Shown piece by piece: positions 3,708 through 43,159 of a DNA stretch of 64,000 nucleotides. Made by a program: the position numbers and the translations under genes. Origin of the DNA: Armatimonadota bacterium. GTDB lineage: Bacteria > Armatimonadota > SYMT01. The notes under the pieces are model-generated. The model made no database searches and had not been told where the DNA came from. It saw only the letters and a program-made list of their open reading frames with translations. The stretch spans positions 371,261-435,260 of the forward strand of contig JAWLHY010000005.1 of the NCBI GenBank assembly GCA_041690135.1. Reading direction: 5' to 3'. Within the stretch, counting starts at the first letter, position 1, and each line of letters starts with the position of its first letter.

Positions 3708-3758
3708 CTCTTCACTTCCTCCTGCTTCGCGTGGTTTGCCCTTTGCTTTTCTGCACCG

Positions 3759-6418: not shown

Positions 6419-6429
6419 GGGACACGGAT

Positions 6430-10130: not shown

Positions 10131-10268
10131 CCACATTCAGGGGTACCCGGCACCCGGCAGCGAGACTCCGCAACAGGGCACCAACTGTCGGGACTGGTGC
10201 AGGCGCCCACCGTCGCAAACCGGAAGGCGGGCGCTTGACGTGCTCTGAACGCGGACAGAGGATCTGTC

Positions 10269-10397
10269 CTAAAAGATGACCGTGAGCAGGTAAATCAAAC
10301 CGAAGAGGACCACCGCGGCCAGCAGGCCGAGGAGGGCGATCCGGTAGCCGATTCCGCGGCCCGGCATCTGGTCTTCCGGCGGTCGTATCTGGCTCAT
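10269..10397 (-). CDS. 42-aa single-TM small protein
   Basis: Manual translation MSQIRPPEDQMPGRGIGYRIALLGLLAAVVLFGLIYLLTVIF, with a purine-rich AAGGAAGGA RBS. Confidence 0.6.
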   Translation of the reverse strand: MSQIRPPEDQMPGRGIGYRIALLGLLAAVVLFGLIYLLTVIF

Positions 10398-10522
10398 AGG
10401 TGTTCCTTCCTTTCCCTCTTGACCCCGTGGTGGGGTCCATTGCGTTCGGGACTCCCCTCACGGGAGCCCCGTTGTTTCCGGTGGGTTTTCCCCGGCGCGG
10501 GAGGACCGCAAACGGAGGGCGG

Positions 10523-13696: not shown

Positions 13697-14552
13697 GCTC
13701 TCTCCCTTCGCGCGCGCCAGCCACTCGCCCGGGCGGACCCGTCGCGGTGGCCGGCGGTGGTTCGTCACACGGCGAGCGTGCTACTACGCGCATTCCCGTC
13801 GAGCCGGAGGGCCAAACCCGGGCGGGTGAGGAGGGCATGTGCGTGAACTACGGCGGGGACGGTGCCCAGGGTGCCCTCACCTCCCTTGCCCTATGTGCGT
13901 TTACTTTGGCGAGTGCGGCGACCAGGGTGAACCCGGCCGCAAGTACGTTACCCTCGGCGGGTACGGTGACCAGGGTAACCTCACCCCCCTGCCCCCTCTC
14001 CGACACAGAGAGGGGGAGCCGACGCTCAAACCAAGGTGGTGGACATAGATCGCGTTCGACGCAGCGGAGGTTGTAGCGCCGCAAAGTTTACGCGCATGCC
14101 CCTATCCCACCGCCTCGGGGCGCAAGCACCCCCTCGGGGCCTAAACCTCTCGCACGCAGAGAGCGGGAAACCACGCGCGAAAGCACAGGGGAGTACGGTT
14201 CTGAACTACCGATCCACGCTCAGGTCGAGGCAAGGTAGCGGTTGTGGGATGGGCGGGTGAAGGTGAATCGTTGAGGGTCACTCTCCAGGGGCTTATGCCG
14301 TTGCGGCAACCGCCGTGAAAATTGGCGGTCCGCAGGCGAATCGATGGCGGACGGATGCGATAGAATTCGCACTTGGAGAGCGACGACGGTTCCCTACCTC
14401 GCACGGGCCGACGGCGGGCTTGCCCTGCGTTGTCCGAAGGGTAGAGGGAACGGCGTTTCTGCCGTAGAATTAGGGACGGGTTGCCGGGTGTTCGTCCTGG
14501 CGCCTCCCTGTTGGTTGAACTACCCCTTGCCGCAAGTACGGAGATCCCCTGG

Positions 14553-17566: not shown

Positions 17567-18847
17567 ATGAACCGACGAGAGTTCGTGAAGAATACGGCAG
17601 TCGGTGCCGGGATCATGTCGCTGGGCGCGGAGGCGTTCCAGCCGAGGTCGGTCCGCGGCGCCAACGAGAAGGTGGTGATGGCGGTCGTGGGGCTCAACAT
17701 CCGCGGCGGCCAGCTCTGCTCCAGCCTGGTGAAGCTGGACCAGGCGGAGATCGGCTACCTCTGCGAGGTGGACGAGAAGGTCCTGGGCCGGGTGACCGGG
17801 CAGGTCGAGAAGAGCGGTCGCCGCCGGCCCGAGGGGGTCCGTGATATCCGCAAGCTGCTGGAGATCCCCGGCCTGGACGCCATCCTCGTGGCGATGCCGA
17901 ACCACTGGCACGGCCCCGCCACCATTATGGGGGTGCAGGCCGGGAAGCATGTCTACTGCGAAAAGCCCGCCTGCCAGACCCCCGAGGAAGGCGAGATGAT
18001 GATCGCCGCGGCCCGGAAGTACAATAAGGTGGTCCAGATCGGCATGCAGCGCCGCAGCATGCCGGGCGTGCAGGAGGCGGTCCAGAAGCTGCGGGAGGGC
18101 GTGATCGGGAACGTCACCTTCGCCCGCGGCTGGTACAACAACCTGCGCTCCACCATCGGCAACGGCAAGGTCGCGCCCGTGCCCTCGCACCTCGACTTCT
18201 CCCTCTGGCAGGGACCCGCGCCCGAGCGGCCGTATAAGGACAACCTGGTCCACTACAACTGGCACTGGTTCTGGCACTGGGGCAACGGCGAGCTCGGCAA
18301 CAACGGCATCCACGCGCTGGACGTCTGCCGCTGGGGCCTCGGCGTGGACTACCCCACCCGCGTCACTTCCGGCGGCGGCAAGTACCGCTTCCCCACCGAC
18401 GACCAGGAAACGCCGGACACCCACACCGCCACCTTCGACTTCGACGGGAAGTCGATCACCTGGGAAGGCCGCAGCTTCCACAAGCGCGGCTTCGAGGGCA
18501 ACGGCTTCGGCATGGCGTTCTACGGCGACGGCGGCACCCTGCTGATCGACGGCGGCGGCTACCGGGTCCTGGACATGAAGGACAAGGAAGTGGCGAAGGT
18601 CCCCGGATCCGGCGCCCAGGAGCCGCACCTGCAGAACTTCATGGACTGCATCAAGAGCGGGAAGCGCCCGAACGCGGACGTGGAGGACGGCCATAAGAGC
18701 ACCCTGCTCTGCCACCTGGGCAACATCGCGTGGCGGACCGAGAGCACGCTCAAGATCGACCCGAAGACCGGCCACATCCTGAAGAACAAGCCCGCGGCCG
18801 CCCTGTGGGGGCGCGAGTACCGCAAGGGCTGGGAGCCGAAGGTCTGA
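17567..18847 (+). CDS. Tat-exported Gfo/Idh/MocA oxidoreductase
   Basis: NRREFV, MPNHWH, YCEKP, HYNWHWFWHWGNGELGNNGIH. Confidence 0.92.
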   Translation: MNRREFVKNTAVGAGIMSLGAEAFQPRSVRGANEKVVMAVVGLNIRGGQLCSSLVKLDQAEIGYLCEVDEKVLGRVTGQVEKSGRRRPEGVRDIRKLLEIPGLDAILVAMPNHWHGPATIMGVQAGKHVYCEKPACQTPEEGEMMIAAARKYNKVVQIGMQRRSMPGVQEAVQKLREGVIGNVTFARGWYNNLRSTIGNGKVAPVPSHLDFSLWQGPAPERPYKDNLVHYNWHWFWHWGNGELGNNGIHALDVCRWGLGVDYPTRVTSGGGKYRFPTDDQETPDTHTATFDFDGKSITWEGRSFHKRGFEGNGFGMAFYGDGGTLLIDGGGYRVLDMKDKEVAKVPGSGAQEPHLQNFMDCIKSGKRPNADVEDGHKSTLLCHLGNIAWRTESTLKIDPKTGHILKNKPAAALWGREYRKGWEPKV

Positions 18848-23186: not shown

Positions 23187-24371
23187 ATGCCCACACTCAC
23201 GCGAGCTCAAGAAGATAACCTGATCCGGATCCTCTCCCGGCATCCGGATTTCCAGACGGCGGAGGACCGGCTGCGGTTGCTGCTGCAGATCATCCCAACC
23301 GCGGCGGACGGGGACGAGACCGCGTACCACGTGAACCTGGGAAAGGATGCCATCCGGGTCGCGGAGGGATTGCTCGCGCAGCTCAAGTTCGAGGGGGTGG
23401 GCCCGGACGGGGTCCACCGCCTGCGGCACATGGTAGCCGGTCTGCGGGAGAAGGTGCGAGACGAGCGGGACCGGGGACGGCTAGCGGGGATGCTCACCTA
23501 CCTGGACCAGCACACCCCGGCGGTGGCGCCGCCCCCGCCGCCCCCGGCGCCGCTCCGCCCGGACCCGCAGCCGCGGCTGGACCCCGCGGACTGGCGGGGC
23601 AAGAATTCCGACGCACCGCCGTATGAGAAGGTGGTGCGGGTAAATACGCTGCGGCAGTTCTATCTGCTGGAGCGTGCGGTGCCTGCTTCACGCGGGGTGT
23701 TCCGCATCGAGGGACGTCCACCCGGCACGGAAGGCGAGCCGGCGGCTTCCACCGGCTTCCTCATCGCCCGCGGTGTGGAGACGGCCCCCGGCGGACCAAG
23801 GGTGGCGCTAGCGATGACGAACCACCACGTGATCGCCACTCTGGAAGAGTTCCCCGGTTATGAGTGCTGGTTCAATTACCGGCTTGACCTGGACGGCCGC
23901 GAGCCGGTGCCCTCGCCGCAAGGGTTCTGCAAGCTGCAGCCGCTGCCGCTGGCCGAGTGGTTCTTTACGGACGCGGGGCTGGACGTAACGGTGTTTGCGC
24001 TCGACGATGCGGTGGTGCCGGCGAATGCGGTGGCTCTGGGGGTGCGAGAGGCCCGCCCACTGGAGGGGGCGCGGGTGCCGATCATTCAGCACCCGAACGG
24101 GGAGTACCTGCAGATCTCGTTCCAGAGCAACTTCATCGCGTACGCGAACGACGAGATCCTGCAATACACCACTACTACCCTGCCCGGCTCTTCGGGCTCC
24201 CCTGTGTTCAATGAGCGGTTCGAGGTGATCGGGATCCACTCAATGGGCGGGGACCTGCCCCACCCCGGTCAGCCAGGACTGACTACCCTAATCAACCAGG
24301 GCACTTCAATCAAGGCGATCCTGGCGGTTCTGCCGGGGGCTATCCGTGGGCGGGTTATGGTGCTGGGGTAA
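23187..24371 (+). CDS. effector-associated-domain (EAD8-like) trypsin-like peptidase
   Basis: ~100-aa helical N-domain, poly-Pro linker, then STGFLI, MTNHHVI, LDVTVF, IIQHPNG, TLPGSSGSPVFN. Confidence 0.82.
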   Translation: MPTLTRAQEDNLIRILSRHPDFQTAEDRLRLLLQIIPTAADGDETAYHVNLGKDAIRVAEGLLAQLKFEGVGPDGVHRLRHMVAGLREKVRDERDRGRLAGMLTYLDQHTPAVAPPPPPPAPLRPDPQPRLDPADWRGKNSDAPPYEKVVRVNTLRQFYLLERAVPASRGVFRIEGRPPGTEGEPAASTGFLIARGVETAPGGPRVALAMTNHHVIATLEEFPGYECWFNYRLDLDGREPVPSPQGFCKLQPLPLAEWFFTDAGLDVTVFALDDAVVPANAVALGVREARPLEGARVPIIQHPNGEYLQISFQSNFIAYANDEILQYTTTTLPGSSGSPVFNERFEVIGIHSMGGDLPHPGQPGLTTLINQGTSIKAILAVLPGAIRGRVMVLG

Positions 24372-24693
24372 GGTTGTGGGCTCGGGCAGAGCGGCCCGAC
24401 GGTCGTAGTCTTGGCGCCGAACTTCGCGAATCGCTCGGATGTCATACCGTTCGTATGGCAGAGGGACAGGAAGCCAGGAAGCCAAGAGTGATGCCAAGCG
24501 ACTGAACTCGCGGCTATAAAACGCGAAGCGAGCCTTCGCAGGGTGTAGCACCGACCTATCCACCCGCTCGCCCTTGAGTGGAGGGGGAGGTGTTAGCCCG
24601 GCTGACGGACAATTAACACTTGGGAGACAGCGGCTAATCCGAATAAGCCGCGACGAGGCACTGTCGTCTCCGGTACTGGTCTTGAGTTCGAAC

Positions 24694-26253
24694 GTGCTCT
24701 TTCCACTGTTACAACCGGCCGACGAACGGCTGCTCCGCGACTATCTGCTCTCCGTGCTGGCACGAACCGGAGACGAGCCGGAGCGGCGCCGGGCCTTGTG
24801 CAAATACTTGCCGGACTCGGTAGCCCAGCTGCCGGCGGAGGCGTGGCTGACCGAGAGGCGGCTGCGACTGGACCGATCCCACGCTGAGATCCTGGAGCAG
24901 TTCTTCGAAGCGCTTCAGAGCCATCCGCCGGCGCTGTTGGCGCACTTGGAAGTGCTGAGCCAGAGCGTGAAGGACGGGCCGACACGCGAGGAGTTCGCGC
25001 GGATGCGGGACGGGCTGCGGTTGGCCCTCGATCCGCTGACGGAGGCGCAGCGCCTTCTGGACGCCGCCGCTTCGGCGGACCCGGACGTCCTTCCGGACGC
25101 ACTGGCCGCCGGTCTCTGGAAGGCGCTGGGGAAGCGCGAGTCGGGTACGTTCTGGCAGGCGGTGGCGCTGCTGGTGCCGCATCCCGCCCGCACTTACCAG
25201 GAGTCGGGACAGGAAGTGCTGCGCCTGCCGCTAGTGGTGGCGCTGGAGCGAACCGCGGCCCGGGTGGGCTTGTCCGGGCCAGACCGGACCCAGTATGGCG
25301 AACTCGTCCAGCAGGCGGTGGAGCGTCTTTACCCGCCGCCTCCCAAAGCCCCGGAGGCAGACCAAACAGCGCCGGGGCCTACCGCGCCGGCCTTCGATCC
25401 GATCACCGTGTACGTGCTGGCACTCGGCTCTAACACCCTGAGCACGGCGGACACGCGCTACCGGCTGTGGTACACGGATCCGCAGGGAGACCGCGGCGCC
25501 CGAGACCTGACCGGCACCCTGAAGGAACTGCAGGCCGGCTTCTCCGCCTGGATCAGTGACGTCCTGTTCGAGTGGTCCGGCGATACCCCACTGGTGGAGT
25601 TTGTGCTGCCCGAGGAGTGCCTGGAGTGGGACGTGGAGCGTTGGGAAGTGGCCCTCAACCCGCGCAACCCAGCCACCGGAAAGCCGATTGGCACGGCGTT
25701 TCCGGTGGTGCTGCGGAACTGGGGGCGGTACGAAGCTCGGCCGCACATCAAGCGCCTGGAGCGCCGCTGCAAGGAGTTGAAGGGCACCGGCACCCTGTAC
25801 TGGTGCCACGAGCCGGCTCATGAGCCGGGCTTGCCGGTCTACCTGGACCACTCGGACTGCCGGACGGTGCTCTACCTGGGCGCGGGCTACCCCTTGCAGC
25901 GGACCGGCGGTAGAAACCTCTGGCTGGCGGTACTCCGGAACGGGGTTCCAGTAGTGATCTGGCGCCGCACCGCCGGCAGCGGAGCGGTGCCCATCCCGGA
26001 CCAACTGGAGAAGCTACTCCATCAGGCACAGCGTCTCCACCCGTTCAACGAGCTGCCAAGTAAGATCAAGGACTGGCGCAGCCTGGTGATCCAGGAGCCA
26101 CCGCAGTACGACGACACGGCGGATGAGGTCTCCCTGCTCTGGGAGAACCCCTACCGGCTCCCCGCCGCCCCACCCCTGCCCGAGGGGGCACCCACCGCAC
26201 CCGACGAAGCTCGCCCGGCGCCGGCGCCCACCAGCACGGGGCGGATCGATTGA
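24694..26253 (+). CDS. vWA-MoxR-associated protein (VMAP, C-terminal VMAP-C domain)
   Basis: PLVEFVLP..WDVERWE, IGTAFPVVLR, GVPVVIWRR, SLLWENPYRLP; lies directly upstream of MoxR. Start uncertain (ORF open from 24574; GTG 24694 chosen). Confidence 0.8.
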   Translation: MLFPLLQPADERLLRDYLLSVLARTGDEPERRRALCKYLPDSVAQLPAEAWLTERRLRLDRSHAEILEQFFEALQSHPPALLAHLEVLSQSVKDGPTREEFARMRDGLRLALDPLTEAQRLLDAAASADPDVLPDALAAGLWKALGKRESGTFWQAVALLVPHPARTYQESGQEVLRLPLVVALERTAARVGLSGPDRTQYGELVQQAVERLYPPPPKAPEADQTAPGPTAPAFDPITVYVLALGSNTLSTADTRYRLWYTDPQGDRGARDLTGTLKELQAGFSAWISDVLFEWSGDTPLVEFVLPEECLEWDVERWEVALNPRNPATGKPIGTAFPVVLRNWGRYEARPHIKRLERRCKELKGTGTLYWCHEPAHEPGLPVYLDHSDCRTVLYLGAGYPLQRTGGRNLWLAVLRNGVPVVIWRRTAGSGAVPIPDQLEKLLHQAQRLHPFNELPSKIKDWRSLVIQEPPQYDDTADEVSLLWENPYRLPAAPPLPEGAPTAPDEARPAPAPTSTGRID

Positions 26254-27419
26254 AAACACAGGTATCTCCCATGCAGCTCGAGCCCCCTACAGCTACTCCC
26301 AATCCGGACGTGCCCGCCGACTGGTGGGCATTCCACGGTGACCGCAACGCCGATGAGAAGATCGCGGCGGAGCGACGGTCCCGGCTGGGCCCCGCCCCGC
26401 CCTGGCGGCCGTCCCGGGCCGTGCCGGACAACACCCTCTACACGCCCCGTCCGGAGCCGCTGGGAGAGACCTATCGCTGCGGGAAGGCGGTGATCGAGAT
26501 GGTCAACGCCGCTCTCGTGCTGCGGCGGCCGCTGTTGATCACCGGTGAGCCGGGCAGCGGGAAGTCGTCCCTGGCGTATGCCGTGGCGCGGGAACTGGGC
26601 CTGGGCCGCGTGCTGCGGTGGAACATTACCAGCCGCACCACCCTGCGGGACGGTCTGTACAGCTACGATGCCCTCGGGCGGTTGCAGGCTTCCGACCTGG
26701 GCGGCGACAGTGACCAGGTGGCGGAGATCGGGCAGTTCATCACCCTGGGGCCGCTGGGCACCGCGCTGCTGCCCTGGTCCACACCGCGGGTGCTGCTGAT
26801 CGATGAGATCGATAAGAGCGACGTGGACCTCCCGAACGACCTGCTGCATGTGTTCGAAGAGGGCGAGTTCGAGATCCCGGAACTGGTGCGGCATCCGGAT
26901 CCGGACGACCGGGGCGTGCGGGTGTGGCCGGACAAGGCGGACCGTCCGCCCCTGGACCGAACGAACCCGGTGCCGCCGGAGCAGTACCAGGTAACGGTGC
27001 ACCGGGGCCGGGTGCAGTGCAGCCAGTTCCCCTTCGTGGTGCTGACCAGCAACGCCGAGCGAGAGTTTCCGCCGGCGTTCCTGCGCCGGTGCCTGCGCCT
27101 GCGGCTGCCCCGACCCGGCCGCGACCAACTGAAGGAGATCGTGCGGGCCCACTTCTCCAATCCGGAGCGGCCGGTGCCCTCCGAGACGCAGCTCGACGAG
27201 CTGATCAGCCGGTTTCTCAAGCGGCGGGACGTGGGCGCCCTGGCCAACGACCAGCTGCTGCAGGCGCTGTTCCTGCGGCTGCGGGGCGGGGAGGCGATCG
27301 ACAGCAACCCGGAAGATGACCTCCGGAACCTGATCAACCGGCTGCTCCATCCCCTGAACCAGCCGGAGGCGGCGGTGGAGCCGGACGAGGACGCGGATGA
27401 CGGCTGCGGGCGCGGATAA
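26250..27419 (+). CDS. MoxR-family AAA+ ATPase of the ternary conflict system
   Basis: RRPLLITGEPGSGKSS (Walker A), LLIDEIDKSDVDLPNDLL (Walker B), LTSNAEREFPPAFLRRC. Overlaps the VMAP stop codon. Confidence 0.92.
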   Translation: MKTQVSPMQLEPPTATPNPDVPADWWAFHGDRNADEKIAAERRSRLGPAPPWRPSRAVPDNTLYTPRPEPLGETYRCGKAVIEMVNAALVLRRPLLITGEPGSGKSSLAYAVARELGLGRVLRWNITSRTTLRDGLYSYDALGRLQASDLGGDSDQVAEIGQFITLGPLGTALLPWSTPRVLLIDEIDKSDVDLPNDLLHVFEEGEFEIPELVRHPDPDDRGVRVWPDKADRPPLDRTNPVPPEQYQVTVHRGRVQCSQFPFVVLTSNAEREFPPAFLRRCLRLRLPRPGRDQLKEIVRAHFSNPERPVPSETQLDELISRFLKRRDVGALANDQLLQALFLRLRGGEAIDSNPEDDLRNLINRLLHPLNQPEAAVEPDEDADDGCGRG

Positions 27420-30400
27420 GTCGCCATCGGCGCCGGAATCCCTGATCCAGTTGCTCGACTGCCTGAGCGGGCTGGAAACCCGCCTGCTCGCCGCGGAATT
27501 GGCGGACGTGCTCTGGCTGGCCCAGCGGCTGCCGGAGCGGCAGGCACCTTCCCGGTCCGGGGAGGCGGCCGAGGCACCGGCAACGGAGGAGACGGAGAGC
27601 CCCCGGGATTCGGCCCGGTCCGAGGCCGGATCGCCCGACGGCACGCCTGCCCACACGGACGCCGACTCGGGTACTAACGCGGAGGTCGGACAGGAGAGGG
27701 AACGTCCACCGGGATCTGTCCCACCGACGGACGCCGGGCAGCCGGAGGACGAGCGGATCCGACTATTTCCAGGCCGTCCCAACTCCCCCGAGCAGACGGG
27801 CGCGGGCGAGATGCCTTCTTCCTCATTCCAGGGCACGGCAGCCCGCGCCCTCCCCCGGACCCGGCAGATCCTGCGGGCCCTCCGCCCACTCGCGGGCCGG
27901 GTCCCCTCGCCCCGGCGGGACGAGCTGGAGGTGGACGTCGAGGCAACGCTCGAGCGGATTACGGAGGGGCTGCTGGCTGCCCGCGCTCGTTCGGAAGCCA
28001 GTGGGGCGGCGCGCCGCAACCGTCCCATTCCCCGCACGCCCGTGTTGCGGCCGGCCGAGGTGCGGCCCTACGAGCTGCACCTGGTGGTGGATACCAGCGC
28101 CAGCATGGCGGTGTGGGAGGAGGCTGCGGGAGAGCTGGCACAGCTGCTGGTGGGCCTGGGCAGCTTCTCGGACGTGCGGGTCTGGTACCTAGACACCCAG
28201 TCTGGCGGGGAGCCGCCGCTCTACGCGGGAGTCCGGTGCGGCGGGGGGACCCAACGCGGGGAGCGGCGGTCCGGTGCCGAGCTGCGGGGCGGGGGCGGCA
28301 GCATTCCGGGTGCCGGGGCGCGGCTGGTGCTGGTGCTGACTGACGGCCTGGGGCCAGCATGGTGGGATGGCCGGGCGCTGGACCTGCTGGCCTCCTGGGC
28401 GGACACGGGCCGGGTAACGCTGCTCCAGACGCTGCCGGAGCGGCTCTGGGGCCGCGCGGTGCACGGTGTACCTCGCTGGCTGGTGGGCGCCCACGAGGCC
28501 GGTGTCCCGAACCGGCGGCTGCTCACGGCTCCCCGGCCGGGCGTCCGCAGCGCGGCGCCGGCGAACGCCCCCCGGTATGATCGAGACCCGGAACGAGTTT
28601 ACGTTCCGGTGGTCGCGCTAGACCCGGACCCGCTGCACACCTGGGCGCGACTGATGACCGGACGCGGCGGGGTGTGGCTGCCGGCGTTTCGCATGCGCCT
28701 GAAGTCCTCACCGGCCCAAACCGTCGCGCCTCTCGAGCCCGTAGACCCGGAGGAGCCGGAAACCGAGGCGGCGCGGGCAGCCCGGATGGTACGCGAGTTC
28801 CGGGCTGGCGCCCCCTGGGAGGCACGCCGCCTGGCGGAACTGTTCGCGGCCGTGGGCACCCTCACCATACCGGTGATGCGCGCCATCCAGGATGCGATGG
28901 TGGCCGGCTCCGGGCTGGAGGCACTGGCGGAGGTGCTGGCCAGCGGCCTGCTGGAAGCCCGCGAAGCTGCGGGCGGGACGGTCTACGCTTTCCGTGGAGA
29001 GCAGCACGGGATAGCCCTGCGCCAGCGGCTGTGGCAGCGCGCAAGCGTTCCGGACACGCTGCGGGCCATGCAGACGGCACTGAACGAGCTCCAGCGGAGC
29101 GTGGGGGATTTTCTGGCCGGAATGAACGCCGAAGGTGCAGCCCAGCCGCTCCAGGTGCTTGATCCACAGGGCCTCCAGCGGCTGTCGGCGGACCACGCCC
29201 TGGCGCCGTTCGCGGCGGTGGCGGCGGAGTACCTGGAGTCGCTGGGCGGGCAGTACGTGCGGAGCGCCCGGACGTGGCAGACAGGCATCGCGTTACCGCC
29301 GCATCAAGGAGACGCCGGCGATCCCACGTCGTATTCGCTGAACGATCTGATCGCGTTGTCCCGGAACCTGGACGGACAGGGCCCGTGGCTGCAGGGGAAG
29401 GTACCGCCCATCCATCTCCTCACCGCAGCGGAGAAGCTCGGGGAGCCGATCAGCGCGGTAATGCACCGGCTGGGCCGGTTTGAAGCCCGGTTCGAGCTGG
29501 AGCTGCCGGTGCTCGACGACCTCGAGCTGACGGCACTTGATGAGCCGCTGCCTAACGAAGCCGATCGGATCGTGCTGTCCCACGGTCTGGACGGCCAGAC
29601 GCCCTGGCTGCACGGGCGGGTCGGGAAAGAACACCTCCTGGCAGCGGCCGTCCAACTGCGAGAGCCCGTGGTGACCGTGCGGCAGCGACTGGAGCGGTTC
29701 GCGGCCCTGTTCGAGCTAGAGCTCCCGGCACCCGGCGACCCCTCCCCCACCCAACCCCTGCGGGTCTTCGTCTCGGCGTCGTTCCGGTATTGCCACCAGG
29801 AACGGCGGGCGATCTTGGCGGAGTTGGCCCGGCGCCCGGAGATCGTGGACACCAGTTGGGAAGCACTGCCGGCGGACCAGCGGGACCGGCAGCACCGGCT
29901 GCCGGTGGTGGCCGCATGCGATCTCTTCCTGCTGCTCCCGGGGGAGGGGCCCAGCGCGGGGCTGGAGGCGGAATACGCCGCAGCATTGGAGCACGGGAAG
30001 ACCTGCCTCGCATACTTCCACCGGGACGCGGCACCGCTGGACGAAACCACGCGGGAGTTCTGGAAGAGACTCCGGGACCGGCACGGCGTTCGGACTTATG
30101 GCAGCTCGGAAGAACTGATCCGGCAGGTCTCACTCGACCTCGATTTTGAGCTGGCGCGGCTGACCGGGAAAGTTCAGGAGCACCCGATGGAGGTGGTGGT
30201 CCTGTTCTCGGATGGGCAATGCGCGGCTCTGCCGGTAGGCGTCGGCGTGTTGGACGCGGCGTTCCACGTGGACCCCGAGCTAGGGCTGCGGATGAACGGC
30301 GCGCGCGTGAACGGCGAGGCGGTGCCGCTGAGCTATCAACTCCGTCAACGGGATCAGGTGGAGCTGGTCACGACCCCCCACAGTTATCCGTCCCGGGAGT

Positions 30401-33400
30401 GGCTCGACTGGGTTCAGACCGAGCGGGCGCGGCACGCCATCCGGGACTGGCTGCGCCGCTACCAGGTGTATGTGGCTGCCGGCGAGATTCCCGACATCCC
30501 GGGCCTACAGTTTGAGTGGGCGGTCCGGTCAGACATCCCCGAGAGAGAGCGAGCAGCAGTCCTCCGCGAATGCGGCCTCTTCATAGCCACATTCCGGCCG
30601 CCTGGGTTTGACTACTGGGAAGGGATCCGGGACGGAGATGTGTCGGTGGTCCGTGGCGCAGTAGGACAGCACCTTCCAGAGTTCGCTCTGGCCCGGCGGT
30701 TGGGACTCCGCTGCCTCATCTACCTGTATGACGATGTGGACGGCCGCAAACCCGCGGGAATGCTCACAGCGGAAACACTCTATCGCTGCGCTAATGTCTC
30801 AGAGTTGCGTGAGGCCATGCGCGGCGACTTCCAGGCGGCTGTGGCAAACCAATGGCCGCTAGAGGGGATTCGAGACGGACGAGAGCCCTTGCTCCGCGAC
30901 CTGTACCAAATGCTAGGGCTACCCCCACTACGCAGTGATCTGGAGACCTTCGAGCTCTCGAGGTTCGCTGGCGAGCGAGGATGGTTAGTCCAGGACTTGA
31001 ACCGTCCAAATCTGGCGATGCTGGTGTCCGCCGTGCGGGGTTTGCAGAAGGCACCCGCGGCCGTATGGGCGTTGCCACTGCCGCGAACGAACGTCGAGAA
31101 TGAACTTCTAAACCGCCTGGCAGGCTGGCTGCGCCAGGAACCGGCAAGCTCTCTGCGCGCGCTGCAGCGTTTTTGGGGAATGTGCGGTCGGGCGGCGCAG
31201 CAACCCACTGACGGGCGGGCGGTGGCGGGTTACCTTCTAGCGTTGGTGTGGTTGGGGCAACTAGTAGAGGGGAACTTTGGGAGGGCCGATCCCGCTCTGG
31301 TACTGTCCCCGCTGAATCCCCCCAACCTGCGCGATTTCCTCGTTCTCGTGGGGGGACGGCAGCCGGCGGCGCTCGATTTCCGCATTGCCGTGGATGGTGT
31401 GACAGTGGCGCACCTCCCCCGCCTTCGTCTCGACACACCCGAATCGGAGGTGAGGCGGCAGGCGCTGGAGGTTCCCGAGGTCGTTGAGCGTATCGTGAAC
31501 CGAAACGTCCGCTCTGTCGAGGTGAGCTTCGGGACTGGGGTGACAATTTCCACCGAGCCGGCATCCCACCCATCATTGACTGGATGCCGTGTCCTCTGGT
31601 GTGATCCCAAGCAAGACCGTGTCAATAGCAGGGAGATAAGCTGGCTCCAGCAACACGGCGCCGTGATTGCCCGCGTACCGCCCAGCCACGTTCAGCTAGC
31701 ATTAGGGAGTGGGCTTCCATACGACGCGCTGATTACGAGCATGGGCGGCGTGTTGCCAGAGGAAGATAGTCTGGGCCTTCATGTGGTTAGGATCGCGAGG
31801 CGGCTACGGCCGGAACTCCCGGTGATCCTGTTTACCCACCGCACCGTGCCATCGGTTCAGGAGGCCAGAGAGGCGGGAGTTGCGCTGATCACCCCCAAAG
31901 TTGAGGTGATCCTGCGGGAACTCCAAACGCTGGTCGACCGCCGAACCCCGACCCTGCCCGAGGATTCGGAGGGGTTCTACACGGAGCGCGGTCTTTGCGA
32001 CGTGATCGACCGGTACCAACTCCGGAGTGGGCGCCAGGAAGCCGACGCGGTGCTCACCCTGCTGCTGCTGTTCCGGACGGAGACGCAGCGGACGTGGTTG
32101 GCAACCACCCACCGGCATCTCTACATCTTGCTGGATGATGCGGAGACGCGCGCTACGGGACCGGATACGGAGCGCGTGATCCAGGAAGAACTGACGCTGA
32201 AGGAGGCCCAGCCCGTCTTCAGCAGCGAAGCACGGGAGTGGCTGGAAACGCGTCTTCTCCACATCGGCCGGGCGCGGAACTGGCATTACACGCTCTCCCT
32301 CCACCCGCGTGCGCAGGACCTCGAGGTGACTGTCCGCGAGTTGATTCTTAATGCGAGACACGGTGATCTTAACCCAACATACCGGCAGCTCTTGCTGCTG
32401 GCTGCCGAATACGAGGCCATCCAAGCGACACAAGAGGCCGGTGGCGAGCGCTCACGCCGTTCGGTATCGGTCTACAAGAGGATGCAGCGATCCAGCCAGG
32501 CAGCTGACAGGGCACTGCTTTCCCGCCTAGCTACCAGCGAGAGCCCGGGCGAACGGTTGGCGGCGGTAGCCATCCTTCAGGAGAAGCCAGCTTCGGAGTA
32601 TCTGCACTGGCTAGCTGCCCGCGTGCATGAGGACCAGGCGTTTATCGGGTATCAGGCCGCGCTGGCCCTAACCACGGCGGCCGAGGAACTCAATTCGGTC
32701 TACCTGGAAGAGGTAGGCACAAGCATCCGCTCGGCTCGGGATACACTGACCTCAGAGGTGAAGGCCGGCACTGACACGGATCGCTACCGCGTACTCGAGC
32801 GAGGACTCGAGGTCCTCGTACAGCGCGAGCGGCAGGATGAGGCGCGACAGCGAGAAGCGGACCTCTCGGACCTCGAACAGAAGCTGTGGAGCAGTGATCC
32901 CGAAGAGTGTCTGCGCATCGCGCGGATCCTGCTGGAGACGGAGCGTGCCGAGTCCGGCCGTTCGGCGTTGGTGTACCTGTTGGCGGCCAGCGACGAAACC
33001 ATTCGGCTCGAGGCGGCGCGCCTGCTTCTGCCTGGGCAGCACCAACCGGTAGCGCTGGAGGCGCTGGCGAGTTTGGCAGGGAGCGAGCAGGAGACGGTCC
33101 GCTATTACGCGGCGCAGCTCTTGTTAGAGACGAAGCTCGCCCCACTCGCAGTGGAGACACTCGGCTCGCTGCTCTCGAGCGAGAACACAAAGAACCGCCT
33201 GGAAGCCGCACGACTGTTGCTGAAGACCGATCTGGGTGCGGCGGCCCAGGACGTGCTGCGGAGAGTGTTTGACAGCGACGATGACTCCCTTCGCTTTGAG
33301 GCGGCGCGTCTGTTGGTGGAGACGGGGCATCACAACGCGGCGCTGAAAACGCTGCGTGGGCTGACAACGAGCGACCTCGCGTCGCTGCGCTCGGAAGCGG

Positions 33401-35712
33401 CGCAACTACTGGAGCGGTATCGCCCCGTACCGGCGCGAGAGGGCATGCGGAGAGCGCTGTGCGTGGGGATCGATGATTACCCCACCGCCCCGCTGGGGGG
33501 CTGCGTGGCCGACGCCCGGCTCTGGAGGGAGACGCTCGCCCGGCACCGCTTCACGGAGATCCAGACCCTCTTCAACGGTGAGGCCACCCGCGGCGCGATC
33601 CTGGACCGGCTCCGCGCGCTGATCGCCGTCAGTCGTCCGGGCGATACGGTAGTGTTCCAATTCGCCGGCCGTGGCACCCGGGTGCGTGCCCCGCACAACG
33701 ACGATGTCGACGTGCCGGCGGTAGACGAGGCACTGTGTGCTTACGATTGCGACACCGGCGGGCTACTGACTGACGAGGACCTGGATGAGGTGTTTCGAGC
33801 AGCTCCGGAAGGCATCAACATTACCTGCTTTTGGGACTGCAGCCACTCCGGAACGATTAGCCGCTTTGCTAGCGGAATTGCCCGGGTCACGGCGGCTGAG
33901 TCCAGCCGCTCCCTGGCGCTGACCCCCCAGGGGCAGGTAGCTCATCATAAGGTGCGTCTGGGGCGGATGGAAGCGCCCAGAGCCCCTGGTTGGAGGTCAC
34001 CGATCATATTCTCCGCATGCAGGTCGGATGAAGTGGCGCTCGAGAGCGGTGGGCAAGGGCACTTCACTCTGCGCGCTACCCGGGTGCTTTGGGACGGCAT
34101 CCGCGGGTTAACAAACGCAGGGCTGCACGAGGCGATCATTCGGAGCTTTGGGCCGGCCGCCCGCCAGCATCCGGTGCTCGATTGTGACCCTGAAGTGGTG
34201 AACCAGCCGCTGTTCGCACCGCCCACCGGACGCTCGGCGGGCGATGAGCACCCGTCATATGGTGCAGTTGACAGCAATGTAGTTCAGAAAACGTTGCTTG
34301 CCGTCGGGACCTACGACGCCTTCGTCAGTTACAGTTGCCACGACACGGCCTGGGTTACCGGCGAACTCTTGCCGCGTCTGAAGCTCGCCGGCCTGGATGT
34401 ATGGAGTTTCGCCGAGCGGACGACGGAGCCGGAGTTCACCGACCATGTGCGCCAGGGAGCGATCGCCGCTTCCCGGTGGCACCTGGTGGTGGTCACCCCA
34501 CGGCTGCGCGAAAGCCCGGGGGCGAACGCAGAGATCACCTATCGCCTGGAAGCCGGCCAGCAGCCCGCGCTAGTTCCGCTGCTGGTGGAAGAGTCCGAAC
34601 TGCCTCCGGCATTGGCTGGGTTGGAGTTCATCGACCTGCGTCACCCCCCGGAGTGGGGCCGACAGTTCGAGTTTCTCGCCACCCGCCTGCGGGGCGAACC
34701 TGGAGGGGTGATTTCGGAAGAGATTCTGGCTGCTCCGCACACCGAGGCTGGGGCCGTGCCGGAGAGCCAGGAGCCGCTGGGAGAGGCCTTCCAACGGGCC
34801 GAGGCCCTGGCACGAGAGTATACCGAGACACGCCGGAGAATGAAGGTTGGGGCAGATCGCACCCGAGCGATGTCTCGCATTGCGCAAGACATGCGAGCAC
34901 TTCCGCCCATCCTCCAGCCGTTGGTGTTCAACTGGAGCCGCAGCTCGAATGCCGGGGAACGGCTGCTGGCCATCGAACTGCTGGCTCAGTATCCGAACGC
35001 CGAGTTCCTGGACTGGCTCGCGGCACGCTCGGCGGAGGAGAAGCACTTCCCCGGTTACCGCGGCACGCTTGCCCTGGCGCGCGCAGCGGAACTCCTTCCA
35101 CCGGAACATGCAGCGCAACTGCGCGAAACGCTGGCCGTGGCGCGCGGAAATGCGGAGCGCTCCGGAGACCCCAACCAGGTGTCGGCGGTGGCAACGGCCG
35201 AGAGAGTGCTGGCGGTGCGGCTGAACCCAAGCCCGGACCCTCGGCTCGAGACCCCAGAGCACCAGTCGCAACCGCAACTCCCGGAGCTCACGAACGATCT
35301 CCCCGGCTACCGATCCGAAGCCACCGAATCGGTGCCAGATGCCATCGCGGACTCGCTGGTCGAGGACCTAGCCTACGAGCTCATTAACGAGGACCCGGAC
35401 GTGACCAGCGACATCGCGGAGTCGGGCGCAGTCGCTTTCGGCCCGGACGTCTGGCGCATTTCGGACGCCGGCTTCACCAATTCCGAGGGGACCGAGTTGA
35501 GCTTTCAGTTGAAGCTGTACCTCGAAGGCGAGGCGGAGGACCGTATGGTCGTCAGCACTACATTATTTGTGCAGCTAGACGTCTCCGCGGTCGTTGTCGG
35601 TGACAAATGGGAAGTCACGAACTGGTTCGTACTGGACCACCGCTTGGTCACTGAAGGCCCCATCGAGACATTCGGCGAGCCCGTAGAGGGCCCCTATCAC
35701 TCCGAAGAGTAG
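27397..35712 (+). CDS. 2771-aa vWA (SAV_2336-type N-terminus) multi-effector protein: vWA, 2x wHTH, DUF4062, TGS, receiver, HEAT repeats, caspase-like, TIR
   Basis: ELADVLWLA, DVEATLERI, LVVDTSASMAVW, LVLTDG (vWA); LSRNLDGQGPWL and LSHGLDGQTPWL; RVFVSAS..EAEY; GARVNGEAVPLSYQL..PSREWL; RALCVGIDDY; YDAFVSYS. Confidence 0.88.
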   Translation: MTAAGADKSPSAPESLIQLLDCLSGLETRLLAAELADVLWLAQRLPERQAPSRSGEAAEAPATEETESPRDSARSEAGSPDGTPAHTDADSGTNAEVGQERERPPGSVPPTDAGQPEDERIRLFPGRPNSPEQTGAGEMPSSSFQGTAARALPRTRQILRALRPLAGRVPSPRRDELEVDVEATLERITEGLLAARARSEASGAARRNRPIPRTPVLRPAEVRPYELHLVVDTSASMAVWEEAAGELAQLLVGLGSFSDVRVWYLDTQSGGEPPLYAGVRCGGGTQRGERRSGAELRGGGGSIPGAGARLVLVLTDGLGPAWWDGRALDLLASWADTGRVTLLQTLPERLWGRAVHGVPRWLVGAHEAGVPNRRLLTAPRPGVRSAAPANAPRYDRDPERVYVPVVALDPDPLHTWARLMTGRGGVWLPAFRMRLKSSPAQTVAPLEPVDPEEPETEAARAARMVREFRAGAPWEARRLAELFAAVGTLTIPVMRAIQDAMVAGSGLEALAEVLASGLLEAREAAGGTVYAFRGEQHGIALRQRLWQRASVPDTLRAMQTALNELQRSVGDFLAGMNAEGAAQPLQVLDPQGLQRLSADHALAPFAAVAAEYLESLGGQYVRSARTWQTGIALPPHQGDAGDPTSYSLNDLIALSRNLDGQGPWLQGKVPPIHLLTAAEKLGEPISAVMHRLGRFEARFELELPVLDDLELTALDEPLPNEADRIVLSHGLDGQTPWLHGRVGKEHLLAAAVQLREPVVTVRQRLERFAALFELELPAPGDPSPTQPLRVFVSASFRYCHQERRAILAELARRPEIVDTSWEALPADQRDRQHRLPVVAACDLFLLLPGEGPSAGLEAEYAAALEHGKTCLAYFHRDAAPLDETTREFWKRLRDRHGVRTYGSSEELIRQVSLDLDFELARLTGKVQEHPMEVVVLFSDGQCAALPVGVGVLDAAFHVDPELGLRMNGARVNGEAVPLSYQLRQRDQVELVTTPHSYPSREWLDWVQTERARHAIRDWLRRYQVYVAAGEIPDIPGLQFEWAVRSDIPERERAAVLRECGLFIATFRPPGFDYWEGIRDGDVSVVRGAVGQHLPEFALARRLGLRCLIYLYDDVDGRKPAGMLTAETLYRCANVSELREAMRGDFQAAVANQWPLEGIRDGREPLLRDLYQMLGLPPLRSDLETFELSRFAGERGWLVQDLNRPNLAMLVSAVRGLQKAPAAVWALPLPRTNVENELLNRLAGWLRQEPASSLRALQRFWGMCGRAAQQPTDGRAVAGYLLALVWLGQLVEGNFGRADPALVLSPLNPPNLRDFLVLVGGRQPAALDFRIAVDGVTVAHLPRLRLDTPESEVRRQALEVPEVVERIVNRNVRSVEVSFGTGVTISTEPASHPSLTGCRVLWCDPKQDRVNSREISWLQQHGAVIARVPPSHVQLALGSGLPYDALITSMGGVLPEEDSLGLHVVRIARRLRPELPVILFTHRTVPSVQEAREAGVALITPKVEVILRELQTLVDRRTPTLPEDSEGFYTERGLCDVIDRYQLRSGRQEADAVLTLLLLFRTETQRTWLATTHRHLYILLDDAETRATGPDTERVIQEELTLKEAQPVFSSEAREWLETRLLHIGRARNWHYTLSLHPRAQDLEVTVRELILNARHGDLNPTYRQLLLLAAEYEAIQATQEAGGERSRRSVSVYKRMQRSSQAADRALLSRLATSESPGERLAAVAILQEKPASEYLHWLAARVHEDQAFIGYQAALALTTAAEELNSVYLEEVGTSIRSARDTLTSEVKAGTDTDRYRVLERGLEVLVQRERQDEARQREADLSDLEQKLWSSDPEECLRIARILLETERAESGRSALVYLLAASDETIRLEAARLLLPGQHQPVALEALASLAGSEQETVRYYAAQLLLETKLAPLAVETLGSLLSSENTKNRLEAARLLLKTDLGAAAQDVLRRVFDSDDDSLRFEAARLLVETGHHNAALKTLRGLTTSDLASLRSEAAQLLERYRPVPAREGMRRALCVGIDDYPTAPLGGCVADARLWRETLARHRFTEIQTLFNGEATRGAILDRLRALIAVSRPGDTVVFQFAGRGTRVRAPHNDDVDVPAVDEALCAYDCDTGGLLTDEDLDEVFRAAPEGINITCFWDCSHSGTISRFASGIARVTAAESSRSLALTPQGQVAHHKVRLGRMEAPRAPGWRSPIIFSACRSDEVALESGGQGHFTLRATRVLWDGIRGLTNAGLHEAIIRSFGPAARQHPVLDCDPEVVNQPLFAPPTGRSAGDEHPSYGAVDSNVVQKTLLAVGTYDAFVSYSCHDTAWVTGELLPRLKLAGLDVWSFAERTTEPEFTDHVRQGAIAASRWHLVVVTPRLRESPGANAEITYRLEAGQQPALVPLLVEESELPPALAGLEFIDLRHPPEWGRQFEFLATRLRGEPGGVISEEILAAPHTEAGAVPESQEPLGEAFQRAEALAREYTETRRRMKVGADRTRAMSRIAQDMRALPPILQPLVFNWSRSSNAGERLLAIELLAQYPNAEFLDWLAARSAEEKHFPGYRGTLALARAAELLPPEHAAQLRETLAVARGNAERSGDPNQVSAVATAERVLAVRLNPSPDPRLETPEHQSQPQLPELTNDLPGYRSEATESVPDAIADSLVEDLAYELINEDPDVTSDIAESGAVAFGPDVWRISDAGFTNSEGTELSFQLKLYLEGEAEDRMVVSTTLFVQLDVSAVVVGDKWEVTNWFVLDHRLVTEGPIETFGEPVEGPYHSEE

Positions 35713-35759
35713 GTGGGCGGACGCAGTGCATACTGAACGAAAGGAGAGGTCGCAAAGAA

Positions 35760-36340
35760 TTATACCACTAGTAGTGCGTAAACCTCTGGCAAGGGGTAAA
35801 GCCGTCTCAAACGAATGTGTGCGTCCTCGGTTGTGAACCGCCAGACAGTACCGTTTCTCGGCCTGATTGCGTTCCTGCTGCCAGGCCGAGACTTCCCGCT
35901 GGTTGCCAGACCGAGACTTCCCGCTGGAGATGCTCCGGGACTGAGGTCCGCCGGTTCAGGCACTATTGGGACAGGATCGCCAATTCGCTCTCCGTTGTTG
36001 AGCCAACTGCCTTGGTTGGGCGTATAGTGGATCTCCAACTTCTGGTCCAGTCGCCACGCCTCGGTGGGCGCAAAGGCCTCGTAGAGCGACTCCACACTAT
36101 GCGTGTTCAGGTTGTCCATGTCTGCCACGAACTCACCGCTGTGCTCCGGCGGGGTGCACCACGGTTCATTCAACCAGAGTATTGGTTGGTTTCTTAGAAA
36201 CCTGACCTACGGCTTCTTGGGGGATATTGTCCAAATGCCTGAGGTAGACCATCCGCTCGGGCAACTACCGCAACGTCCATCGGGTGTACCTGTCCAGAAC
36301 TTCGCTACAGGCCGACGTGAGGGGTTACGCTTCCAGTTCG
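35760..36340 (-). mobile_element. degenerate IS630-family transposase remnant
   Basis: DNLNTHSVESLYEAFAPTEAWRL..EIHYTP..SWLN and WRFTTEDA..L.RLYP, plus an upstream RWTLR..VSKK-like piece. Deletions and frameshifts present. Confidence 0.82.
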
Positions 36341-42994: not shown

Positions 42995-43159
42995 AACTGG
43001 CCTCCCATTCTTCGCGAGAGAGGAGGGAGGCTGCGCGGGGCAGGACCAGCAAACCCGCCGGTTCTCGCCCGAACACCGGCTCCCCGTGCGCCCTGTTCCC
43101 GTTCGGAGGGGAGATGACACTCGTTTTGTTAGCCTGAGATGCTTTACAGGCGATGCTAC

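What the first reader, a model, noticed from the sequence alone, without database searches (positions are those of the whole stretch)
23187..35712. Complete vWA-MoxR-VMAP ternary conflict system with an unusually rich effector load
Seen: EAD-trypsin, VMAP, MoxR and a giant vWA protein in order, the last three with overlapping stop/start. Known: this order defines the NTP-dependent ternary conflict systems predicted computationally, mainly in multicellular actinobacteria and cyanobacteria and largely untested. Inference: an anti-phage, apoptosis-like system in a probably different phylum. The core is described; this effector combination may not be.
Basis: partly seen in the sequence, partly recalled or inferred. 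Interest (0 to 1): 0.75.

Follow-up and report, generated by a model that had tools for sequence, protein, structure and literature searches.

The report
Giant-effector VMAP-MoxR-vWA conflict system
This is a complete copy of a computationally predicted and still untested bacterial immune or suicide gene cluster, unusual mainly because its effector protein is 2771 residues long and built from about a dozen modules; modelling also suggests that the cluster's signature protein has the fold of a dead caspase.

Summary
Four co-directional genes lie at 23187-35712. They encode an EAD8-like domain plus an active-looking trypsin, a VMAP protein (VMAP-C 93 bits, cut-off 27), a MoxR-type AAA+ ATPase, and a 2771-residue vWA protein (SAV_2336 N-terminal domain 311 bits, cut-off 200). 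The last three genes are translationally coupled. [quoted passage not shown] 2020, eLife).

The vWA protein is the longest found among its relatives. The other 149 of the best 150 relatives are at most 2475 residues, and the longest in 61 named loci is 1915. No full-length relative was found. It is a mosaic of about twelve modules.

Its caspase domain has lost both catalytic residues. The TIR domain keeps its glutamate and is the only module I checked that keeps a catalytic residue.

The matching EAD8 expected on the VMAP was not detected.

The system is rare in the host phylum (VMAP-C over cut-off in 4 of 401 genomes). An earlier unchecked scan note calls the phylum Armatimonadota.

Function remains inferred. 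The scan has noted VMAP systems on other DNA before. Verdict: a new member of a known kind.

The parts
19818..22622 (-). Possible accessory effector (P0005): a trypsin-like peptidase fused to a PGAP1/LCAT-like alpha/beta hydrolase, transcribed divergently. The ORF runs to 22721, but the likely start is the Met at 22622.
   Evidence: Trypsin_2 47.9 bits, LCAT 40.5, PGAP1 32.1. H230/D288/S393 and lipase S709 motifs are present by eye. Membership of the system is inferred from adjacency only.
23187..24371 (+). EAD8-like adaptor (residues 10-97) plus trypsin-like serine peptidase (residues 189-350), P0001.
   Evidence: The Ser in GSSGSP (S336) aligns with the nucleophile motif of V8 protease. H213/H214 and D266 are assigned by eye.
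24574..26253 (+). VMAP (P0002). The N-terminal and middle regions match no Pfam family. VMAP-C covers residues 296-526 (25459-26151). The database gene call starts at the GTG at 24694.
   Evidence: Model and fold matches of VMAP-C.
26250..27419 (+). MoxR-type AAA+ ATPase (P0003): Walker A GEPGSGKS (K105), Walker B LLIDE (D185/E186), sensor-1 N268, Arg R279/R280.
   Evidence: It is 43-56% identical (best segment) to the MoxR genes of the 80 best related loci.
27397..35712 (+). Giant vWA component (P0004, 2771 aa).
   Evidence: The database gene call has the same length.
27490..29079 (+). SAV_2336-type N-terminal module with the vWA domain. MIDAS motif D232-x-S234-x-S236, plus D316.
   Evidence: NCBIfam 311 bits. 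Alignment A1 has consensus VVDxSxSM and an invariant D316.
29344..29736 (+). Two wHTH-HSP90_Na-associated winged helix domains.
   Evidence: PF24410, 94.4 bits, 2 stretches.
29761..30171 (+). DUF4062-like domain (weak match).
   Evidence: PF13271 at 17.1 bits, under its cut-off of 24.7. 37% identical to a module of relative P0008.
30199..30372 (+). TGS domain.
   Evidence: PF02824, 36.7 bits. RelA/SpoT TGS region in NCBIfam.
30394..31584 (+). About 400 residues of unknown nature.
   Evidence: No Pfam hit, no Atlas hit, no shorter homologue. The single-sequence model has pLDDT 43.
31585..32343 (+). Receiver-like domain plus a following unknown domain (residues 1397-1649).
   Evidence: Response_reg at 14.1 bits only. 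However, residues 1399-1649 are 32% identical (E 4e-21) to relative P0015, and the matched region of P0015 starts with its receiver domain, which scores 39.4 bits.
32398..32658 (+). HEAT-like helical module, copy 1 (residues 1668-1754).
   Evidence: Internal repeat with copy 2: 33% identity over 87 residues, E 1e-10. Weak HEAT_2 match.
33154..33411 (+). HEAT repeats (residues 1920-2005).
   Evidence: HEAT_2, 35.5-38.6 bits.
33448..34185 (+). Caspase-like (Peptidase_C14) domain lacking the catalytic dyad: R2092 in place of His and S2149 in place of Cys.
   Evidence: PF00656, 54.4 bits. Alignments to metacaspase MCA2 and GSU0716. Positions.
34321..34671 (+). TIR domain with candidate catalytic Glu E2379.
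   Evidence: TIR_2, 53-58 bits. E2379 lies in a column that is Glu in 4 of the 6 aligned TIR domains, this one included.
34807..35064 (+). HEAT-like helical module, copy 2 (residues 2471-2556).
35260..35655 (+). C-terminal domain of unknown family.
   Evidence: 28% identical (E 8e-5) to residues 1329-1460 of relative P0011, another vWA component. No Pfam hit.
35760..36173 (-). DDE_3 transposase fragment at the 3' edge of the locus. It is context, not part of the system.
   Evidence: PF13358 at 26.1 bits, under its cut-off of 28.6.

Best explanation
The locus is an intact VMAP-type vWA-MoxR ternary conflict system, most likely an NTP-gated, protease-triggered abortive-infection or suicide device.

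Shown here: all three core proteins are present in the canonical order. They have an intact Walker A/B ATPase, an intact MIDAS motif and a full VMAP-C domain. A separate active-looking trypsin carries an EAD8-like adaptor. The vWA protein carries about twelve further modules.

Inferred, following Kaur et al. 2020:
1. In the resting state the MoxR ATPase and the vWA MIDAS site hold the complex inactive.
2. An invader is recognised, either by the variable helical part of the VMAP or by the non-catalytic modules of the giant protein acting as baits. These modules are the dead caspase, the HEAT modules, the winged helices, TGS and the receiver-like domain.
3. ATP-driven remodelling then lets the trypsin act. 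The trypsin is recruited through its adaptor.
4. The trypsin cuts the giant protein between modules, freeing or activating the TIR domain.
5. By analogy with other bacterial TIR defence proteins, the TIR domain would destroy NAD+ or make an ADP-ribose-derived signal and stop the cell.
6. The neighbouring trypsin-lipase protein may be a second, membrane-directed effector.

VMAP-C, the constant part of the signature protein, is predicted to be a caspase/CHAT-fold domain without a catalytic dyad. It would therefore be a docking or regulatory pseudo-protease rather than an enzyme.
For: - VMAP-C 93.1 bits against a cut-off of 27. SAV_2336_NTERM 311.3 bits against 200.
- In the scan with the MoxR protein, 539 of 600 matched stretches encode a relative. 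The 80 loci kept come from cyanobacteria, actinomycetes, Planctomycetota, Chloroflexota and others.
- A VMAP-C ORF lies upstream of the MoxR gene in 77 of 80 of these loci. A vWA N-terminal ORF was found in 61 of 80.
- Motifs are intact. Stop and start codons are coupled.
- The trypsin Ser aligns with the V8 protease nucleophile motif.
- The TIR Glu E2379 lies in a column that is Glu in 4 of the 6 aligned TIR domains.
- The dead caspase fits the published statement that about 70% of caspases in the effector position are inactive (PMC7159879, passage seen).
- Modules are shared one at a time with other vWA components, which fits effector accretion.
- The 76-sequence VMAP-C alignment has no column with Cys in the majority at 60% or more. 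Its best His column reaches 68%.
Against: - No experiment on any VMAP-type system was found in the library, so every functional step is inference.
- The EAD rule requires a matching EAD8 on a core component. None was detected on the VMAP N-terminus: no Pfam hit at E<=1, hhalign probability 0.2%, and shuffle z 1.3.
- The EAD8 call on the trypsin itself is borderline (23.6-26.9 bits against 27).
- The trypsin gene is separated from the VMAP gene by 202-322 bases. The promoter and terminator scans found nothing above chance, so co-transcription is not shown.
- PADLOC-DB has no model for the system. It gives only a 'caspase' hit and weak ATPase hits.
- The published rule that a caspase on the vWA protein goes with a caspase on the VMAP is not met here.
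- About 700 residues of the giant protein remain uncharacterised.
Confidence: 0.72

Rival explanations
1. Same system with the information flow reversed (the proposal of Dore et al.). The giant vWA protein is the sensor: its many non-catalytic modules bind invader molecules. MoxR relays the signal. The output is the VMAP-associated trypsin, perhaps together with the trypsin-lipase, which attacks cellular targets.
For: - Dore et al. propose this order for VMAP systems whose vWA protein carries hypervariable lectin domains (10.1101/2023.09.22.558884, passage seen).
- Here most vWA-borne modules are non-enzymatic or inactive.
- Both free-standing peptidases look active.
Against: - The vWA protein still carries a TIR domain with its Glu. 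This looks like an output, not a sensor.
- No diversity-generating retroelement or lectin domain is present in the locus.
Confidence: 0.2
2. A MoxR-vWA threat- or stress-signalling pathway whose output is regulatory (transcription or a nucleotide signal) rather than cell death. It would be comparable to the Esr pathway of oral actinobacteria.
For: - The giant protein carries two winged-helix domains, a TGS domain and a receiver-like domain.
- A beta-propeller-type MoxR-vWA pathway was shown experimentally to switch on Esx secretion against epibionts (bioRxiv 10.64898/2026.09.08.750141, passages seen).
Against: - That pathway uses kinase and FHA partners and no VMAP. None of these was seen among the ORFs scanned here.
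- TIR, trypsin and lipase modules are typical of killing effectors.
Confidence: 0.06
3. A horizontally acquired relic that is no longer functional.
For: - It is the only VMAP-C gene in the genome.
- A transposase fragment lies next to it.
- G+C is 0.70-0.72 over the core, against 0.63-0.65 downstream.
- The VMAP differs from the family consensus at several conserved columns (W to C, H to D).
Against: An 8.3-kb frame without a stop, intact catalytic motifs in MoxR, vWA, trypsin and TIR, and preserved start/stop coupling argue for purifying selection.
Confidence: 0.03

Closest known systems
VMAP-type ('classical') vWA-MoxR ternary conflict systems (Kaur, Burroughs, Iyer, Aravind, eLife 2020; PMC7159879)
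   Same: - Same three core proteins in the same order: VMAP-C, MoxR and an SAV_2336-type vWA protein.
- A variable C-terminal effector array on the vWA protein.
- A trypsin as the associated peptidase.
- An inactive caspase in the effector position.
- TIR, TGS and receiver domains are all in the published repertoire.
   Different: - The vWA protein has 2771 residues and about 12 modules. The published length peaks are 850-1450 residues, with 1-11 domains and a mean of 3.
- The trypsin is a separate gene carrying an EAD8-like adaptor. In 45 of 75 related VMAPs the trypsin is fused to the VMAP.
- No cognate EAD was detected on the VMAP.
- The caspase on the vWA protein is not matched by a caspase on the VMAP.
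- The alpha/beta hydrolase neighbour is fused to a trypsin.
- The host phylum rarely carries the system.
Esr (beta-propeller-type MoxR-vWA) threat-sensing pathway of Schaalia odontolytica (bioRxiv 10.64898/2026.09.08.750141)
   Same: It has a MoxR-vWA pair at the centre of a conflict-response pathway. It is the only experimentally studied relative I found in the library.
   Different: It has no VMAP. It works through kinase and FHA phosphorelay to Esx secretion, and has no effector array on the vWA protein.
CHAT and separase-type clan CD peptidases (Csx29/TPR-CHAT of Craspase, separase, gingipains)
   Different: There is no detectable sequence similarity and no conserved His/Cys dyad. VMAP-C is therefore not a member of these peptidase families.
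Bacterial TIR-domain abortive-infection effectors (Thoeris-type and other TIR NADases; recalled, not searched here)
   Same: A TIR_2 domain with a Glu at the conserved position.
   Different: Here the TIR domain is one module inside a 2771-residue protein, and it is presumed to be controlled by proteolysis and an AAA+ chaperone rather than by a small-molecule signal.

Membership tests
VMAP-type vWA-MoxR ternary system | A protein with the VMAP-C domain | tested here: met
   PF20028 at 93.1 bits (cut-off 27), model positions 5-226 of 226. It is the only such gene in the genome.
VMAP-type vWA-MoxR ternary system | A MoxR-clade AAA+ ATPase with intact Walker A/B, encoded next to the VMAP gene | tested here: met
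   AAA_5 at 28.8 bits (cut-off 22). Motifs located. It is 43-56% identical (best segment) to the MoxR genes of the 80 best related loci, 77 of which have a VMAP-C ORF directly upstream. The Pfam bpMoxR model belongs to another subsystem and scores 26 bits, under its cut-off of 27.
VMAP-type vWA-MoxR ternary system | A vWA protein with the system-specific N-terminal module and a MIDAS motif | tested here: met
   NF041121 SAV_2336_NTERM at 311.3 bits (cut-off 200). DxSxS motif and D316 are conserved in alignment A1.
VMAP-type vWA-MoxR ternary system | Gene order VMAP, MoxR, vWA in one tightly packed operon | tested here: met
   The same order is seen in the related loci and in three genomes of the same phylum.
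VMAP-type vWA-MoxR ternary system | A variable array of effector domains C-terminal to the vWA domain | tested here: met
VMAP-type vWA-MoxR ternary system | The VMAP N-terminus bears a peptidase, a nucleotide-signal enzyme or an EAD. An EAD on a neighbouring effector is matched by the same EAD on the core protein. | tested here: inconclusive
   A stand-alone trypsin with a borderline EAD8 lies upstream. No EAD8 or any other family was detected on the VMAP N-terminal 300 residues. Profile and shuffle tests were negative. Stand-alone peptidase genes next to the VMAP gene are allowed by Kaur et al. (passage seen).
VMAP-type vWA-MoxR ternary system | Role in conflict with invaders (anti-phage or programmed death) | not testable with these tools
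   It is a prediction in the literature too. No experiment on a VMAP system was found.
Clan CD caspase-fold peptidases (CHAT, separase, gingipain), considered for VMAP-C | Caspase-hemoglobinase fold | tested here: met
   [not shown]
Clan CD caspase-fold peptidases (CHAT, separase, gingipain), considered for VMAP-C | Catalytic His-Cys dyad | tested here: not met
   The 76-sequence alignment has no column with Cys in the majority at 60% or more. The only His column reaches 68% and is Asp in this protein. The structural equivalence of positions could not be read, because no residue-level structural alignment was available.
Active caspase/metacaspase (Peptidase_C14), for the domain at residues 2018-2263 | Catalytic His and Cys | tested here: not met
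   Arg stands where MCA2 and GSU0716 have the His of the GHG motif. Ser stands where they have the catalytic Cys. The numbering of the MCA2 mutants is recalled.
TIR NADase-type effector | TIR fold with the conserved catalytic Glu | tested here: met
   TIR_2 at 58.4 bits. E2379 lies in a column that is Glu in 4 of the 6 aligned TIR domains, this one included. That this column is the catalytic one is recalled from the literature. Enzymatic activity was not tested.

The most novel reading that the evidence does not exclude
VMAP-C is the signature domain of about 1500 published ternary systems and was reported in 2020 as unrelated to any known fold. On this reading it is a caspase/CHAT-fold pseudo-protease.

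The core of these systems would then be a dead caspase scaffold that docks and gates an active protease, whether fused or recruited through an EAD, under the control of the MoxR-vWA chaperone pair. That would be a bacterial counterpart of the pseudo-protease/protease pairing in separase and of the regulated CHAT protease in Craspase.

In this locus the theme appears twice: a dead caspase fold in the VMAP and a second dead caspase in the giant vWA protein, which could pair with each other.
Probability: 0.4. Interest if true: 0.65.

Novelty: new member of a known kind. Interest (0 to 1): 0.45.

Why it matters
VMAP ternary systems are among the most elaborate predicted prokaryotic immune or apoptosis-like systems, yet I found no experiment on one in the library searched.

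This copy is complete and single in its genome. Its main enzymatic outputs can be tested by point mutation: the trypsin Ser, the TIR Glu and the lipase Ser. An 8.3-kb effector gene makes proteolytic processing easy to see. It is therefore a usable test case for the protease-release model.

The predicted caspase-like fold of VMAP-C, if confirmed, would give the whole class a mechanistic anchor and tighten the parallel with eukaryotic caspase platforms.

Tried and rejected
- Full-length search for relatives of the giant protein (1524-4850 aa): only itself. Search with the VMAP protein: only itself. Both searches depend on shared short words, so they do not prove absence.
- The VMAP protein was not found in 40 relatives with the protein query.
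I used the MoxR protein instead.
- EAD8 on the VMAP or on the divergent peptidase: hhalign probabilities 0.2% and 0.3%; shuffle z 1.3, 0.7 and 0.7; phmmer with the EAD8 region found only itself in the related loci. The earlier scan note of a shared N-terminal motif is therefore not supported statistically.
- Complex prediction of the EAD8 region with the VMAP N-terminal part: no verdict.
- Residues 1000-1400 of the giant protein: no Pfam hit, no Atlas hit, no shorter homologue. The single-sequence AlphaFold model has pLDDT 42.8, too poor for a fold search.
- Sequence link between VMAP-C and CHAT or caspases: none. The profile against PDB sequences gave a best E of 0.59 to unrelated proteins, and hhalign against small CHAT and caspase alignments, run in global mode, gave probability under 0.1%.
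- Naming the phylum: the Atlas look-up with SecY was uninformative.
- Island boundaries by synteny: the best-matching homologues of the two flanking genes lie on different contigs in the best relative, G005, so nothing can be concluded.
- The promoter and terminator scan gave nothing above shuffles.
- The divergent trypsin-lipase has no counterpart in the 80 related loci, apart from one weak hydrolase hit.
- The main source-data file of Kaur et al. (fig1-data1.pdf) could not be read. It may list architectures or phyla that bear on the uniqueness claims.
Full report
OBSERVATION

- P0001 has a Trypsin_2 domain (58.4 bits, cut-off 27.6). Its N-terminal EAD8 match is borderline: 23.6 bits for the whole protein, 25.9 for the N-terminus alone and 26.9 in the genome search, against a cut-off of 27.
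- P0002 matches VMAP-C over nearly the whole model (93.1 bits, cut-off 27).
- P0003 is an AAA+ ATPase (AAA and AAA_5 over their cut-offs).
- P0004 matches NCBIfam SAV_2336_NTERM at 311.3 bits (cut-off 200).

The VMAP stop overlaps a TTG start of MoxR (TTGA). Alternatively, an ATG lies 17 bases downstream. The MoxR stop lies 23 bases inside the vWA gene. The trypsin gene is not overlapped: 202 to 322 bases separate it from the VMAP start, depending on which start is used.

MEMBERSHIP

A scan of one genome per species with the MoxR protein matched 600 stretches, and 539 of them encode a relative. The 80 best loci are 43-56% identical in their best segment. They come from cyanobacteria, Streptomyces and other actinomycetes, Pirellulaceae, Chloroflexota, Gemmatimonadaceae, Blastocatellia, Desulfobacterales and Thiomargarita.

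- In 77 of these 80 loci a VMAP-C ORF lies directly upstream of the MoxR gene. The three misses are contigs cut just upstream of the match.
- In 61 of the 80 a vWA N-terminal ORF was found.

Motifs in this locus:
- MoxR has Walker A GEPGSGKS, Walker B LLIDE, a sensor-1 Asn and an Arg pair.
- The vWA domain has the MIDAS motif DxSxS and the invariant Asp of the family alignment.

The locus is therefore a member of the VMAP class of vWA-MoxR ternary systems defined by Kaur et al. 2020 (PMC7159879; passages seen). PADLOC-DB 2.0 has no model for it.

THE GIANT PROTEIN

After the N-terminal module (residues 32-561), Pfam finds:
- two wHTH-HSP90_Na-associated domains
- a weak DUF4062 match
- a TGS domain
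- a weak receiver match
- HEAT repeats
- a Peptidase_C14 (caspase) domain
- a TIR_2 domain

Further features:
- An internal repeat links residues 1668-1754 and 2471-2556 (33% identity, E 1e-10).
- About 400 residues (1000-1400) and the C-terminal 150 residues match no family.
- The 1000-1400 stretch had no homologue in any search and gave an unusable model.

The caspase domain has Arg where metacaspase MCA2 and GSU0716 have the catalytic His, and Ser where they have the catalytic Cys. It is predicted to be inactive, as Kaur et al. report for about 70% of caspases in this position. The TIR domain keeps a Glu (E2379) in a column that is Glu in 4 of the 6 aligned TIR domains, this one included. 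That this is the catalytic position is recalled.

HOW UNUSUAL IS IT?

- HMMER with residues 1-620 against 1.84 billion representatives found 2730 relatives at E<=0.001. The other 149 of the best 150 range from 305 to 2475 residues, with a median of 1084 and three over 2000.
- In the 61 named loci the longest vWA frame is 1915 residues, against 2784 here (stop to stop).
- Kaur et al. give length peaks at 850-1450 residues and 1-11 C-terminal domains with a mean of 3.
- A word-based search for proteins of 1524-4850 residues found only the protein itself.
- I picked 27 of the 150 for a Pfam scan: 21 of the best-scoring ones and the six that share the caspase module. None has the wHTH or TGS domains.
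- Single modules are shared with different vWA components: the DUF4062-like module with P0008, the receiver module with P0015, the C-terminal domain with P0011, and the caspase with six others.

The protein is thus a one-off mosaic at the extreme of a class in which one-off mosaics are normal. G+C is 0.70-0.72 over MoxR and the vWA N-terminus and 0.63-0.65 over the effector part. This hints at separate histories for the two parts.

THE PEPTIDASES

- In 45 of 75 related VMAPs a trypsin is fused to the VMAP N-terminus.
- 14 of the 75 carry EAD1, 2, 6, 7 or 9. Two carry TIR, one SIR2 and one CHAT. None carries EAD8.

Here the trypsin is a separate gene with an EAD8-like head, an arrangement that Kaur et al. 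allow. Its Ser aligns with the V8 protease nucleophile motif.

The EAD principle predicts the same EAD on a core protein. I could not detect it on the VMAP N-terminus, nor anywhere else in the genome above the cut-off. A genome of the same phylum (G018) does have an EAD8-like head on its VMAP (23.9 bits).

The divergently transcribed gene at 19818-22622 encodes a second trypsin fused to a PGAP1/LCAT-like hydrolase. Kaur et al. describe hydrolase neighbours for caspase-bearing VMAPs. Here a trypsin takes that place.

The link of this gene to the system rests on adjacency and on one correlation. Its trypsin part has three paralogue hits in G002, the only other member of the family with a VMAP system, and none in the other relatives. 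Only the hydrolase part has two weak hits in other genomes (4 of 41 genomes searched have any match, the own genome included).

HOST AND DISTRIBUTION

- The genome has 9.1 Mb and one VMAP-C gene.
- In a sample of 401 genomes of its phylum, VMAP-C is over the cut-off in 4 and EAD8 in 2. Both counts include this genome.
- The other three systems are ordinary: a trypsin or EAD8-like VMAP, MoxR, and a vWA protein. Two of the vWA proteins carry FGE-sulfatase and/or TIR domains. The third has only weak AAA-type hits and is cut by its contig end.
- In a quick MoxR tree the four do not group together, but their branches are long and support is weak.
- An earlier, unchecked scan note calls the genome Armatimonadota. 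I could not verify this.
- The main text of Kaur et al. and its species table do not contain that name.

VMAP-C FOLD

Kaur et al. could not unify VMAP-C with any known domain. An AlphaFold2 model built from 76 VMAP-C sequences has pLDDT 78.4 and pTM 0.78.

- Foldseek's best PDB matches are Csx29/TPR-CHAT and separase (E 2.4e-3, probability 0.98, TM about 0.4).
- The alignment has no column with Cys in the majority at 60% or more, and its one His column reaches 68%.
- Sequence profiles show no link.
- None of the papers found with 'VMAP-C', 'vWA-MoxR associated protein' or 'VMAP' plus 'CHAT domain' makes this link in the passages I saw.

I read VMAP-C as a caspase-fold pseudo-protease. This rests on a predicted model.

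MECHANISM

The steps are inferred from Kaur et al., with the alternative order from Dore et al.. The best-supported account is an ATP-gated complex of VMAP, MoxR and the vWA protein. After sensing an invader it lets the EAD8-trypsin act, releasing or activating the modules of the giant protein. The TIR domain is the likely killing enzyme, and the dead caspase, HEAT, wHTH, TGS and receiver-like modules act as baits, adaptors or regulators.

The library holds an experimental study of a beta-propeller-type MoxR-vWA pathway but none of a VMAP system.

VERDICT

This is a real, complete, single-copy VMAP ternary system: a new member of a known, untested kind. It is notable for the largest vWA effector protein found among its relatives and for its split EAD8-trypsin arrangement. 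The scan has noted VMAP systems on other DNA before.

Noticed in passing
[not shown]
   Followed up: yes
window 19818-22622 (-): One protein joins an active-looking trypsin to a PGAP1/LCAT-like lipase and is transcribed divergently from the operon. Its trypsin part has paralogue hits only in the one related genome that also has a VMAP system.
   Followed up: partly
window 32398-32658 and 34807-35064: A duplicated HEAT-like helical module lies inside the giant protein (33% identity). The second copy follows the TIR domain. The first follows the receiver-like module and the unknown domain after it.
   Followed up: partly
window 26000-30000 versus 30000-36000: G+C is 0.70-0.72 over MoxR and the vWA N-terminal module, but 0.63-0.65 over the effector part of the same gene. 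The core and the effector array may have separate origins.
   Followed up: no
window 35760-36173 (-): A short ORF with a sub-threshold DDE_3 transposase match lies directly after the giant gene.
   Followed up: no
L013 (G018:C119) 148-6699 (+) and 8673-13955 (-): A genome of the same phylum carries two MoxR-type systems back to back. Their large proteins both end in FGE-sulfatase (lectin-like) domains, the kind that diversity-generating retroelements target elsewhere.
   Followed up: no
window 17567-18847 (+) and related genomes: The GFO/IDH/MocA oxidoreductase next to the locus belongs to a family with 31 to 66 matches per genome in five relatives.
   Followed up: no
window 40694-43120 (-): An 808-residue protein has a DUF7948 domain and six SBBP beta-propeller repeats.
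   Followed up: no
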